Source of the DNA: Escherichia phage NJ01
Sequence record: NC_018835.1
Length of the DNA stretch: 64,000 bases
Strand: one strand, 5' to 3'
The translations under genes were made by a program, and so were the position numbers. The notes beneath the pieces were generated by a model. That model had not been told where the DNA came from. It did not search any database and saw only the letters and a list, made by a program, of their open reading frames with translations. The first letter of the stretch is position 1; every line of letters begins with the position of its first letter. Below, in pieces: positions 51,237-53,915 of the stretch.

Positions 51237-51446
51237 TTAATATTCTTTTACATAATAAACCACTAAGGTTCCCATCTCTGACAATGTTGATTTATGTAAG
51301 CTTACTTTACTATAAATCTTTGGGGCCATCTTAAGAGCCTTCTTAAAACGGCGAGCATCTTTACGAGTAGCAAAGTGCTCTGTAACAGGTATAGCCGGGT
51401 CTTGGTAGAGGTAATATACCACCGTCCAATATTTTTTCATAATCAA
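51237..51446 (-). CDS. small protein, member of four-copy paralog family
   Basis: Shares TRKDARRFKK core and C-terminal Tyr with 53300..53915 trio. Confidence 0.45.
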   Translation of the reverse strand: MIMKKYWTVVYYLYQDPAIPVTEHFATRKDARRFKKALKMAPKIYSKVSLHKSTLSEMGTLVVYYVKEY

Positions 51447-51905: not shown

Positions 51906-52091
51906 TTACAGCATAGCAAGAATGATAATAAGAGGTAATGTTATAGCGAAATTAATAAGAACAGCGCTGCCTAGCTTGATAGCTTTAACATCCTCTTCTG
52001 ATGGGTTTTCTTTAATTGCTAAATTTCGAGCTTTATATATAACAGTACCAATTATTAACGACCACACGGCCCACACAATCAGTGAAATCAT
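51906..52091 (-). CDS. small two-TM membrane protein
   Basis: MISLIVWAVWSLIIGTVIY...INFAITLPLIIILAML. Confidence 0.45.
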   Translation of the reverse strand: MISLIVWAVWSLIIGTVIYKARNLAIKENPSEEDVKAIKLGSAVLINFAITLPLIIILAML

Positions 52092-52100
52092 ATCAAACCC

Positions 52101-52280
52101 TTATGCAGTCAGGAGGTGAAGCAGGAATGGGATAACAACAGCTACGACAACCATGATGGTTGATGCTGTTTGAATCTCACCTTTCTTGTCAGGGGTTTCT
52201 TCAATAAGCTTGCCAGAAGCCCAATAGATACCACCACCAATAAAGACAGCCCAAATACCCCATACGATTGCTGATAACAT
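52101..52280 (-). CDS. small two-TM membrane protein, paralog of 51906..52091
   Basis: Translation MLSAIVWGIWAVFIGGGIYWASGKLIEETPDKKGEIQTASTIMVVVAVVIPFLLHLLTA; track ORF 52142..52396 is another frame. Confidence 0.45.
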   Translation of the reverse strand: MLSAIVWGIWAVFIGGGIYWASGKLIEETPDKKGEIQTASTIMVVVAVVIPFLLHLLTA

Positions 52281-52341
52281 ATATCTATATCCTTATAAAT
52301 AAGTTCGCCCCACCTCGGGTTAGGAGACAGGGCGGAGGTTT

Positions 52342-52953
52342 TTAGTAAGACACATCGCCACTTGAGTGGGACATGTTGCTCTTGACGAAGTAGCAATACT
52401 TGCCAAGACCTTCATTAATTTCTTGAAGCATACTCTGATCAACTGGATAAGTGGCTAAATCACCATCAAACTCATCCATCTTCTCAATAATACACATCAA
52501 GGTCATGCACATATCAGAGAGCATACCGTCCATATCTAGGTCAGCATTACCCTCTGAGAACCAAGCATGGGAGAGATAATTGGCTGCTGTGGCGTCCACT
52601 TTAACACAGTGGTAACGCATACGTTCAGCAATACGATCTCCTACTTGTCGTGCGTAATCTTCCAGCTCATCAAACATACCATGAACACCCTGAAATCCTG
52701 CACCAGAGACGTTCCAATGGTAGTTTTTAGCTTTGATATGCAAGAGTTCCATGTTAGCTTGTAAGCAGCTCAGGATGTGTTCTAGGCTGTTTCCACTAAT
52801 CATACCCTGCATTGTTTCAAGGCGAGAGATTGAAAGCTCGGACCGATCTAACATATTGTATTCGACACGACCAATCTCGGGTAAGTCAAAGACATTCTTA
52901 TGCATTTGGGTTTTCTCCATCAAGTTCAACTGAGTTAGCAACATTACGTGCAA
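52342..52953 (-). CDS. Dps / ferritin-like protein (start uncertain)
   Basis: HIKAKNYHWNVSGAGFQGVHGMFDELEDYARQVGDRIAERM matches Dps ferroxidase helix pair. Confidence 0.6.
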   Translation of the reverse strand: MHVMLLTQLNLMEKTQMHKNVFDLPEIGRVEYNMLDRSELSISRLETMQGMISGNSLEHILSCLQANMELLHIKAKNYHWNVSGAGFQGVHGMFDELEDYARQVGDRIAERMRYHCVKVDATAANYLSHAWFSEGNADLDMDGMLSDMCMTLMCIIEKMDEFDGDLATYPVDQSMLQEINEGLGKYCYFVKSNMSHSSGDVSY

Positions 52954-53227
52954 TATTATCCATTACCTGCTGGGTAATTACGATGCAGTTCTGCGGGTCT
53001 ACTGACTTAGAACGCCCCATTTCAGGGTCATACACCTTAACTCGCTTAGCAGTTGAACCTGTAACCTGAAGAACCTTCAACAGATATCCCTGATTACCAA
53101 TAGACCAAGCAACAACATCACGATTCTTGATAAAGCGACCAAGCATATCACGATGATAAAACTGTTGCATCACCTTGGATTTTGTAATCTCTTCAGTGGG
53201 CGGGGCCACTTTACTCAAATCTAACAT
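52898..53227 (-). CDS. hypothetical protein (109 aa)
   Basis: ORF track; overlaps annotated Dps start. Confidence 0.4.
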   Translation of the reverse strand: MLDLSKVAPPTEEITKSKVMQQFYHRDMLGRFIKNRDVVAWSIGNQGYLLKVLQVTGSTAKRVKVYDPEMGRSKSVDPQNCIVITQQVMDNIARNVANSVELDGENPNA

Positions 53228-53266
53228 AACTCTCTCCTGTAAAATACAAATTCTTATTGTACTCTA

Positions 53267-53275
53267 TATACATTT
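53267..53275 (-). promoter_or_regulatory. variant AAATGTATA element (minus strand)
   Basis: + strand TATACATTT, 40 nt upstream of gene start at 53227. Confidence 0.3.
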
Positions 53276-53299: not shown

Positions 53300-53509
53300 T
53301 CAGTAATAAATTACTTTAGACATAAAAGAACCCGAGTTAGGGTCTTCGTACCAGCGATGTATATCAGCGCTTTTTACTATTGTGCCCAGAGTCTTCAACT
53401 GTTTCTTAGCAATACGAGCCTCTTTGCGAGTGTCAAACAATTTGATGCTATCTTTTCTCGTGTGTTGATCAAGATCCCAAACAACACGAATCGCCCACAT
53501 CTTTTTCAT
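53300..53509 (-). CDS. small protein, paralog family member
   Basis: W.IRV...TRKEARIAKKQLK...Y-COOH pattern. Confidence 0.5.
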   Translation of the reverse strand: MKKMWAIRVVWDLDQHTRKDSIKLFDTRKEARIAKKQLKTLGTIVKSADIHRWYEDPNSGSFMSKVIYY

Positions 53510-53718
53510 TAGTAATGTACCTTTCCGCTGATATAAACACGACCAGAAGAATACTCCTTGGCCTTATGGATACTGATACTATTGACCACGTCACCAGTAA
53601 GCATAGTCTTTTTAAAATCTCGAGCCTGTTGACGAGTAGGAAGTGCAGTCATAGTCATACCACCTGATGCCCACTTAATCTTTGCTAACCAAAACTGTCT
53701 CATAGTGATTGGTCTCAT
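53509..53718 (-). CDS. small protein, paralog family member
   Basis: TRQQARDFKK core, C-terminal HY; start/stop overlap with neighbours. Confidence 0.5.
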   Translation of the reverse strand: MRPITMRQFWLAKIKWASGGMTMTALPTRQQARDFKKTMLTGDVVNSISIHKAKEYSSGRVYISGKVHY

Positions 53719-53915
53719 TAATAATAAACCTTGCTGTTGGCAAAAAGAGCACCTTCGTTATTCACAATAGCTTTTCCTATTGTAACCTTATTGAGTCTAA
53801 AAGTAGACTTGTATTGGTTTTTGACCCTACGGGCGTGTTCTCGAGTATTAACAAAATCTACAGCTACTAACTCTCCAGTCGTGTTATCATGTACACGAAC
53901 AATCCACTTTTTCAT
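53718..53915 (-). CDS. small protein, paralog family member
   Basis: TREHARRVKNQYK core, C-terminal YY. Confidence 0.5.
   Translation of the reverse strand: MKKWIVRVHDNTTGELVAVDFVNTREHARRVKNQYKSTFRLNKVTIGKAIVNNEGALFANSKVYY

What the first reader, a model, noticed from the sequence alone, without database searches (positions are those of the whole stretch)
52342..52953. Phage-encoded Dps/ferritin-like protein
The sequence HWNVSGAGFQGVHGMFDELEDYARQVGDRIAERM matches the Dps ferroxidase helix pair. Dps-like proteins are uncommon in phages; it may protect replicating DNA from oxidative damage or manage iron during infection. Its start is uncertain because the track ORF overlaps the upstream gene.
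Basis: partly seen in the sequence, partly recalled or inferred. Interest (0 to 1): 0.5.

Follow-up and report, generated by a model that had tools for sequence, protein, structure and literature searches.

The report
Phage Dps mini-ferritin, already annotated
This gene in a phiEco32-like (Kuravirus) E. coli phage encodes a genuine but divergent Dps-type iron-detoxifying mini-ferritin with all its iron-binding residues intact; it has been annotated as such since 2008, so the find is correct but not new.

Summary
The ORF and the quoted peptide are real. The true CDS is 52342-52905 on the minus strand: ATG start with a GGAG ribosome-binding site, overlapping the upstream stop. It encodes 187 aa (21.3 kDa, pI 4.7).

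It is a Dps-family protein. It passes the Pfam Ferritin cut-off, matches PHROG 3636 (E 3e-55), and a profile search of the PDB returns only Dps proteins (E 6e-15). The AlphaFold2 model is a four-helix bundle with the short BC helix. H63, W64, H75, D79, D90 and E94 align with E. coli Dps H51, W52, H63, D67, D78 and E82. They are invariant in all homologues examined.

The window is a Kuravirus, 97% identical to phage 172-1. The orthologue phiEco32 gp67 is already labelled 'member of the Dps family', and the SU10 and Privateer papers noted it.

Points added here:
- The gene sits behind the experimentally characterised phage-sigma middle promoter P68.
- It is translationally coupled to a lineage-specific 109-aa partner, gp68-like.
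- It is under strong purifying selection (dN/dS about 0.05).
- It is acidic and has no basic tail, so the 'DNA-binding' label is doubtful.
- It is unusually rich in Cys and Met.
- Many GenBank records call it 'integrase', which is wrong.

Its role in infection has not been tested. Iron and peroxide detoxification during replication, after host transcription shut-off, is the most likely function.

The parts
52342..52905 (-). Dps-family mini-ferritin CDS (187 aa plus stop); orthologue of phiEco32 gp67 and SU10 CDS67
   Evidence: ORF; start codon analysis; Pfam, PHROG and PDB hits; AF2 model with pLDDT 80.5 and Foldseek top hits all Dps; 97.9% identical to phiEco32 gp67; dN/dS 0.055.
52624..52719 (-). 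Residues 63-94, the helix A end to helix B segment carrying the ferroxidase ligands H63, H75, D79, D90, E94 and W64
   Evidence: Invariant in 16 close and 14 distant homologues. Aligned to E. coli Dps H51/W52/H63/D67/D78/E82.
52771..52905 (-). N-terminal extension of about 45 aa, specific to Kuravirus-like Dps (conserved MHNNVFDLP and S-x-x-R-L-E/D-x-M motifs; predicted helix 18-37). Net acidic, not Lys-rich.
   Evidence: Alignment A1. Absent from the 146-156-aa homologues of SE131, J3S, A24 and 4_4572. pI 5.05 with 4 K+R against 7 D+E. pLDDT 44-62. dN/dS about 0.2, so still constrained.
52915..52918 (-). GGAG ribosome-binding site for the Dps gene, lying inside the 3' end of the upstream gene
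   Evidence: Sequence read directly. SU7 record annotates an RBS at the equivalent position.
52898..53227 (-). gp68-like gene (109 aa, PHROG 10984, function unknown), translationally coupled to Dps; predicted small SH3/Tudor-like beta-barrel
53266..53274 (-). AAATGTATA, the promoter element of phiEco32 middle promoter P68 (consensus tAATGTAtA), recognised by the phage sigma gp36 and activated by gp79
   Evidence: Motif search. The region is 97% identical to phiEco32, motif included. The motif lies upstream of gene 68, consistent with the experimentally detected promoters (PMC4331800). P68 was used as the 'middle promoter' in transcription assays and for the cryo-EM open complex (PMC12276001).
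52306..52334 (-). Terminator-like hairpin (11-bp stem, 7 G-C pairs) starting 8 nt after the Dps stop codon; weak U-tract
   Evidence: Identical in phiEco32. The folding energy is not exceptional (z = -1.28), so function as a terminator is not established.

Best explanation
The gene encodes a divergent member of the Dps (mini-ferritin) family. It is made in the middle phase of infection from the phage-sigma (gp36/gp79) promoter P68, together with the small gp68-like protein.

By homology it should assemble into a hollow dodecamer. Two-fold-related subunits would share di-iron ferroxidase sites: H63, H75 and D79 from one chain, D90 and E94 from the other. Fe2+ would be oxidised there, preferentially with H2O2, and stored as a ferric core. 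That removes both Fenton reagents.

The most likely benefit is protection of replicating phage DNA and the phage's nucleotide-metabolism and redox module (ThyX, thioredoxin, dCTP deaminase) from hydroxyl-radical damage. This would matter at a time when gp79 has shut off sigma70- and sigmaS-dependent host transcription, so the host cannot induce its own dps or OxyR response.

Shown here: family membership, an intact ligand set, the fold, the promoter context, expression and purifying selection. Inferred: the dodecamer, ferroxidase activity and the protective role.
For: Family and fold.

Ligands invariant and aligned to E. coli Dps.

Strong purifying selection, with core dN/dS about 0.02.

Expression: 6 peptides and 35.8% coverage for SU10 CDS67, the highest peptide count among middle-gene products.

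Promoter P68 lies upstream of the gp68-gp67 pair.

gp79 inhibits sigma70- and sigmaS-holoenzyme transcription (PMC12276001). That host dps depends on sigma70/OxyR and sigmaS/IHF is my own knowledge (Altuvia et al. 1994).

Conserved neighbourhood of nucleotide and redox enzymes in every lineage: ThyX, thioredoxin and dCTP deaminase here, and the same plus anaerobic RNR NrdD/NrdG in Aeromonas, Cronobacter and Proteus relatives.

The protein is only about 19% identical to host Dps. It belongs to a small phage clade of 7 representatives at E<1e-30 among 1.84 billion proteins, so it is a long-maintained phage gene rather than a recent pick-up.
Against: - No biochemical or genetic test of any phage Dps was found in the searchable literature.
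- Oligomeric state could not be predicted with the tools available.
- The clade is unusually Cys- and Met-rich: median 7 Cys against 1 in other Dps representatives. It also carries a 45-aa N-terminal extension of unknown role. Both hint at chemistry or interactions beyond a standard Dps.
- It scores far below the NCBIfam Dps equivalog cut-off (34.5 against 114 bits).
- Detection in virion preparations is not predicted by a purely cytoplasmic role.
Confidence: 0.65

Rival explanations
1. It is mainly a DNA-binding, DNA-condensing protein, as its database label says. It would coat or compact phage or host DNA, for example to shield phage DNA from nucleases or to reorganise the nucleoid.
For: Database labels read 'DNA binding protein'. 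Some Dps proteins bind DNA through N-terminal extensions; L. lactis Dps uses an N-terminal helix and D. radiodurans Dps1 a long N-terminal tail (my own knowledge). This protein has an extra predicted N-terminal helix, residues 18-37.
Against: The protein is acidic throughout: pI 4.7, N-terminal 45 aa with 4 K+R against 7 D+E, C-terminal tail with no basic residue. The Lys-rich flexible tail that E. coli Dps needs to bind DNA is absent. Dps proteins without such tails, such as those of Listeria innocua and Agrobacterium, do not bind DNA (my own knowledge). Relatives in SE131, J3S, A24 and 4_4572 lack the extension altogether.
Confidence: 0.12
2. It is an iron store or iron donor (or a protector) for iron-dependent or oxygen-sensitive enzymes needed for dNTP synthesis, rather than a DNA protectant.
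For: In Aeromonas 4_4572, Cronobacter A24 and Proteus J3S the gp68-like/Dps pair lies next to the anaerobic ribonucleotide reductase genes and thioredoxin. That NrdG is an Fe-S radical-SAM activase is my own knowledge. The gene is always embedded in the nucleotide-metabolism module.
Against: The Kuravirus genome studied here has no annotated RNR or other iron enzyme, yet it keeps the gene under strong constraint. Dps proteins are generally poorer iron stores than ferritins (my own knowledge).
Confidence: 0.13
3. It is a virion-associated protein, either carried in or on the prolate capsid, or delivered with the DNA.
For: It was detected by MS in CsCl-purified Privateer virions, where ten predicted virion-associated proteins were verified. 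It was also detected in concentrated SU10. BFVD holds phage proteins named 'prohead protease' that contain a Dps-like fold.
Against: The SU10 2014 preparation also contained DNA polymerase, thioredoxin, PhoH and the sigma factor, so it carried cytoplasmic proteins. The 2022 SU10 structural study lists only late gene products as virion proteins and found no unassigned internal density. The gene is a middle gene, not a late one. Abundant, dense, iron-loaded cages could co-band with phage in CsCl (inference).
Confidence: 0.07
4. It is an integrase, as many GenBank records state.
For: The annotation 'integrase' or 'putative integrase' appears in 172-1, KBNP1711, IME267, XT73, IMEP8, DE5, YW01, EK5 and other records.
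Against: At E<=1 the only Pfam hit is Ferritin, with no recombinase domain. The fold is a Dps four-helix bundle. RefSeq re-annotation calls it a DNA binding protein.
Confidence: 0.01

Closest known systems
phiEco32 gp67 (YP_001671812, 'DNA binding protein, member of the Dps family'), SU10 CDS67 and 172-1 ORF86
   Same: Orthologues at 97-99% amino-acid identity, with the same length, start, neighbours, P68 promoter region and downstream hairpin.
   Different: Nothing of substance; this is the same gene in a sister phage.
Bacterial Dps mini-ferritins with solved structures (B. anthracis Dlp-2 1JIG, B. subtilis MrgA 2CHP, M. smegmatis Dps2 2Z90, S. aureus Dps 2D5K, E. coli Dps 1DPS/1F30)
   Same: Four-helix bundle with a BC helix, TM-score normalised to target (TMt) of 0.79-0.91. 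Full-length profile match. Identical ferroxidase ligand pattern HW-x10-H-x3-D-x10-D-x3-E.
   Different: - Only 19-27% identity.
- Below the NCBIfam equivalog cut-offs.
- An extra 45-aa acidic N-terminal extension.
- No basic DNA-binding tail.
- 5-10 cysteines, against 0-1 in most Dps, and about twice the methionine content.
- Expressed from a phage-sigma promoter rather than OxyR- or sigmaS-dependent ones.
Dps homologues of other prolate (C3) podophages: Salmonella SE131/7-11, Proteus Privateer/J3S, Cronobacter A24/GAP52, Aeromonas LAh/4_4572
   Same: Same phage clade of Dps at 31-45% identity. Same nucleotide-metabolism neighbourhood. A gp68-like gene lies immediately upstream in most of them.
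   Different: They are 146-156 aa and lack the long N-terminal extension. They sit next to NrdD/NrdG, which Kuravirus lacks. In SE131 the gp68-like gene is about 1.3 kb away.
Ferritin-like cargo of encapsulins (HK97-fold shells). This is an analogy only.
   Same: A ferritin-superfamily protein associated with an HK97-fold particle, if the virion association is real.
   Different: Encapsulin cargo is a different branch of the ferritin superfamily and uses a C-terminal targeting peptide; this comparison rests on my own knowledge. No such peptide was looked for, and there is no evidence of loading here.

Membership tests
Dps (DNA protection during starvation) / mini-ferritin family | Significant match to the Ferritin-like domain model above the curated threshold | tested here: met
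   PF00210 scores 30.9 bits against a gathering cut-off of 24.5. All 25 homologues carry PF00210. A profile search of the PDB gives 53 Dps-family sequences at E<=1e-3.
Dps (DNA protection during starvation) / mini-ferritin family | Four-helix bundle with a short BC helix in the long B-C loop | tested here: met
   AF2 model helices 41-65, 72-98, 107-112 (BC), 125-150 and 154-176; pLDDT above 84 across the core. The top 50 Foldseek PDB hits are all Dps or Dps-like, with TMt up to 0.91.
Dps (DNA protection during starvation) / mini-ferritin family | Intersubunit ferroxidase ligands (E. coli H51, H63, D67 from one chain; D78, E82 from the other) and the adjacent Trp52 | tested here: met
   H63, H75, D79, D90, E94 and W64 align to these positions and are invariant. 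The reference sequence was verified against PDB 1f30.
Dps (DNA protection during starvation) / mini-ferritin family | Dodecameric hollow cage with 23 symmetry | not testable with these tools
Dps (DNA protection during starvation) / mini-ferritin family | Fe2+ oxidation by H2O2 or O2 and formation of an iron core | not testable with these tools
   This needs biochemistry.
E. coli-type DNA-binding Dps (the basis of the 'DNA binding protein' label) | Flexible Lys/Arg-rich N- or C-terminal tail | tested here: not met
   The N-terminal 45 aa have pI 5.05 with 4 K+R against 7 D+E. The C-terminal SHSSGDVSY has no basic residue. Whole-protein pI is 4.7.
NCBIfam equivalog of bacterial Dps (NF006975) or DpsA (NF041388, NF052461) | Score above the curated equivalog cut-off | tested here: not met
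   34.5 against 114, 32.2 against 170 and 17.6 against 300 bits. It is a family member, not an orthologue-level equivalent.
Phage integrase (tyrosine or serine recombinase), as annotated in many records | Recombinase catalytic domain | tested here: not met
   No recombinase Pfam hit at E<=1. The fold is a Dps bundle.
phiEco32 gp36-dependent middle transcription unit | tAATGTAtA element upstream, at the position of the experimentally mapped P68 | tested here: met
   AAATGTATA at 53266-53274 (-). The region is 97% identical to phiEco32. P68 is described in PMC4331800 and PMC12276001. Transcription in this particular phage was not measured.

The most novel reading that the evidence does not exclude
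The Kuravirus Dps, with its lineage-specific N-terminal extension, its many cysteines and methionines and its co-translated SH3-like partner gp68, may not be a plain cytoplasmic Dps. It could be a specialised two-component system. One form would be a redox-active, thiol-rich cage that gp68 tethers to phage DNA, the replisome or the prolate capsid. That would make an encapsulin-like association of a mini-ferritin with an HK97-fold particle, and would explain its recovery from purified virions of two distant C3 podophages.
Probability: 0.07. Interest if true: 0.6.

Novelty: already known. Interest (0 to 1): 0.22.

Why it matters
As an identification it adds nothing new. The gene has been called a Dps-family member since the phiEco32 genome, and two later papers remarked on it.

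It has modest practical value. Many Kuravirus records label this gene 'integrase'. That label could wrongly mark strictly lytic therapeutic-candidate phages as temperate. The 'DNA-binding' label is also not supported by the sequence.

Biologically, no phage Dps seems to have been tested. This one is a tractable case: a core gene of a well-studied phage group, driven by a structurally characterised phage-sigma promoter, and paired with a conserved unknown partner. It could be used to ask why a lytic phage needs its own iron and peroxide detoxifier after shutting down host transcription.

Tried and rejected
- Alternative starts TTG 52953 and ATG 52920. Rejected because neither has a Shine-Dalgarno sequence, both overlap the upstream gene further, and all homologues and reference annotations start at MH(K/N)N.
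- Plus-strand ORFs inside the region (42-85 aa). No support, and the substitution pattern fits the minus-strand frame.
- Integrase annotation. Rejected.
- Terminator status of the hairpin at 52306-52334. The pattern scan finds it, but its folding energy is not exceptional (z = -1.28) and the U-tract is weak, so it is listed only as terminator-like.
- gp68 function. There are no Pfam or NCBIfam hits. The AF2 model is of modest confidence (pLDDT 63). Foldseek against the PDB gives nothing at E<=1e-3, only generic Tudor/SH3-like barrels. The afdb50 library was unavailable.
- Whether gp68-like accompanies Dps outside C3 podophages. It was absent from 78 other IMG/VR Dps loci, so the pairing is lineage-specific.
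- Primary phiEco32 papers (Savalia 2008, Pavlova 2012). They are not held, so promoter facts come from later open-access papers.
- Searches for experimental work on phage Dps. None found. The 7-7-1 paper hit was a false lead, because there 'DPs' means decoration proteins.
- A look for Dps-protease fusions among the fetched loci. Only one long fusion turned up (L055: Ferritin plus DUF5824), and it has no capsid link.

Full report
**Observation**

The minus-strand ORF 52342-52953 exists, and its translation contains the quoted peptide exactly. Those coordinates describe the longest possible ORF, which starts at a TTG. The real start is the ATG at 52905:
- A GGAG lies 9 nt upstream of it.
- The ATG overlaps the TAA of the upstream gene in the sequence ATGCATAA.
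- Every homologue begins MH(K/N)N.
- phiEco32 gp67 and 172-1 ORF86 are annotated from the same codon.

The product is 187 aa, 21.3 kDa, with pI 4.7. This matches the 21.2 kDa reported for SU10 CDS67.

**What the protein is**

Sequence searches all point to Dps:
- Pfam gives only the Ferritin-like domain, above its gathering score (30.9 against 24.5 bits).
- PHROGs gives phrog_3636 at E 3e-55 over the whole Dps core.
- A single-sequence search of the PDB returns essentially only Dps proteins (best 2.6e-9).
- A profile of 16 homologues raises this to 6e-15, covering the full domain.

The AlphaFold2 model has mean pLDDT 80.5, and above 84 across the core. It is a four-helix bundle with the short BC helix typical of Dps, plus an extra low-confidence N-terminal helix. 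Its 50 best Foldseek matches in the PDB are all Dps or Dps-like structures, with TMt up to 0.91.

The spacing HW-x10-H-x3-D-x10-D-x3-E places H63, W64, H75, D79, D90 and E94 on E. coli Dps H51, W52, H63, D67, D78 and E82. These residues are invariant in close and distant homologues.

The gene is under strong purifying selection. dN/dS against phiEco32 is 0.055 at dS 0.24, with the core near 0.02 and the N-terminal extension near 0.2.

**Where it comes from, and whether it is new**

The window is a Kuravirus (phiEco32-like prolate podophage). It is 97.4% identical over 4 kb to Escherichia phage 172-1.

The orthologue phiEco32 gp67 is annotated 'DNA binding protein; member of the Dps family'. 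The SU10 paper lists CDS67 (DPS domain) among the few genes shared by all sequenced C3 phages (PMC4281155). The Privateer paper notes the Dps homologue and says its function is unverified (PMC7881722). The identification is therefore already known.

Dps relatives are rare across phage genomes as a whole: 137 of 50,697 records. They are nevertheless universal in this lineage. At least 370 IMG/VR contigs also encode Dps relatives, and BFVD holds about 15 viral Dps-like folds at E<=1e-3.

The lineage's Dps forms a small separate clade. Only 7 cluster representatives reach E<1e-30 among 1.84 billion proteins, before ordinary Dps proteins begin. It is only about 19% identical to E. coli Dps, so it is an old phage gene rather than a recent host capture.

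**Anatomy of the locus**

Upstream, at 53266-53274 (-), lies AAATGTATA. This matches the single-element promoter consensus tAATGTAtA of the phage sigma factor gp36. The intergenic region is 97% identical to phiEco32.

In phiEco32 this motif lies upstream of genes 6, 13, 26, 40, 58 and 68, in agreement with the experimentally mapped promoters (PMC4331800). P68 is the 'middle promoter' used for in-vitro transcription and for the cryo-EM open complex with RNAP-gp36-gp79 (PMC12276001).

P68 drives two genes. The first is the 109-aa gp68-like gene (52898-53227). The second is Dps, which is translationally coupled to it. A terminator-like hairpin follows 8 nt after the Dps stop and is conserved in phiEco32. 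Its energy is unremarkable.

**The gp68-like partner**

It has the same phage distribution as Dps. It sits immediately upstream of Dps in Aeromonas 4_4572, Cronobacter A24 and Proteus J3S. In Salmonella SE131 it lies about 1.3 kb away. It is absent from 78 unrelated viral Dps loci.

Its model is a small SH3/Tudor-like beta-barrel flanked by helices, at modest confidence and without a significant structural match. Its function remains unknown.

**Likely mechanism**

By homology, which is inference, the protein forms a dodecameric cage. Ferroxidase sites at the dimer interfaces oxidise Fe2+, preferentially with H2O2, and deposit ferric iron inside. That Dps prefers H2O2 as oxidant is my own knowledge of the family.

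Three observations make a protective role during replication the best reading:
- The gene is always embedded in the nucleotide-metabolism and redox module. Here that is ThyX, thioredoxin and dCTP deaminase; in relatives it also includes NrdD/NrdG.
- It is a middle gene whose promoter is activated by gp79.
- gp79 simultaneously blocks sigma70- and sigmaS-dependent transcription. Those are the two routes by which E. coli induces its own dps (my own knowledge).

The phage therefore appears to supply a function that the silenced host can no longer induce.

**What does not fit a standard Dps**

The 'DNA-binding' label is not supported. The protein and both of its tails are acidic, and the Lys-rich tail used by E. 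coli Dps is missing.

The clade is unusually rich in cysteine and methionine: median 7 Cys against 1, and 6.5% Met against 3.8%. Kuravirus-like members carry a conserved 45-aa N-terminal extension that relatives lack. These features are unexplained.

**Rival readings**

Iron supply to iron-dependent enzymes is suggested by NrdD/NrdG adjacency in relatives. However, Kuravirus has no annotated iron enzyme.

Virion association is suggested by MS detection in CsCl-purified Privateer and in concentrated SU10. Against this:
- The SU10 sample also contained DNA polymerase, thioredoxin, PhoH and the sigma factor.
- The 2022 SU10 structural study lists only late gene products as virion proteins.

The 'integrase' label present in many records is simply wrong.

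**Verdict**

Interest is low to moderate. The residual interest lies in the untested biology of a phage-sigma-driven, Cys-rich, tail-less Dps paired with a conserved unknown partner, and in correcting the misleading 'integrase' and 'DNA-binding' annotations.

Noticed in passing
window 52898-53227 (-): gp68-like gene (109 aa, PHROG 10984, no Pfam or NCBIfam hit), translationally coupled to Dps. It has the same phage distribution as Dps and lies immediately upstream of it in Aeromonas, Cronobacter and Proteus C3 podophages, but about 1.3 kb away in Salmonella SE131. The predicted fold is an SH3/Tudor-like small beta-barrel (pLDDT 63) with no significant structural match. It is a possible Dps partner of unknown function.
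   Followed up: partly
window 52342-52905 (-) and its orthologues in GenBank (e.g. KP308307 ORF86, KF981730 ECBP3_0069): Many Kuravirus-group records annotate this Dps gene as 'integrase' or 'putative integrase'. There is no recombinase domain. The error could wrongly flag lytic therapeutic-candidate phages as temperate.
   Followed up: yes
window 52342-52905 (-); proteins P0001-P0031: The phage Dps clade is unusually rich in cysteine (median 7 per protein against 1 in 137 other Dps representatives, 54 of which have none) and in methionine (6.5% against 3.8%). The motif DMCMTL in helix C is nearly invariant. The reason is unknown.
   Followed up: partly
window 53300-53509, 53509-53718, 53718-53915 and 51237-51446 (all -): Four paralogous small proteins of 65-69 aa, all PHROG 4939 (unknown function). 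Three lie in tandem just upstream of P68 and one lies downstream near thioredoxin.
   Followed up: no
window 52101-52280 and 51906-52091 (-): Two tandem paralogues (59 and 61 aa, PHROG 9296) that look like small hydrophobic membrane proteins, immediately downstream of the Dps hairpin.
   Followed up: no
window 15496(+), 27099(+), 32327(+), 41868(+), 41795(-), 48566(-), 53267(-): There are seven exact AATGTATA matches (2.5 expected by chance). Their number and strand split are in line with the few gp36-dependent middle and late promoters described for phiEco32. Only the one at 53267 (P68) was examined.
   Followed up: partly
L006 (Proteus J3S), L007 (Aeromonas 4_4572), L008 (Cronobacter A24): In non-Kuravirus C3 podophages the order thioredoxin, gp68-like, Dps is followed or preceded by the anaerobic ribonucleotide reductase genes (NrdD/NrdG). 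Kuravirus lacks these genes.
   Followed up: partly
BFVD entries A0A6J7XDU5, A0A6J7WPK9, A0A6J7WIS1; L055 664-2892 (+): Some uncultured-phage proteins named 'Prohead protease' (333-763 aa) contain a Dps-like fold. One IMG/VR contig encodes a 743-aa protein with an N-terminal Ferritin/Dps domain and a DUF5824 domain. Dps fusions in phages may be worth a separate look; the protease fusions could not be verified here.
   Followed up: partly
protein P0032: A 1156-aa database protein made of about 20 tandem copies of a roughly 59-aa unit that resembles the Dps helix A/B segment but lacks the His ligands. It is probably an assembly or repeat artefact unrelated to this phage.
   Followed up: no
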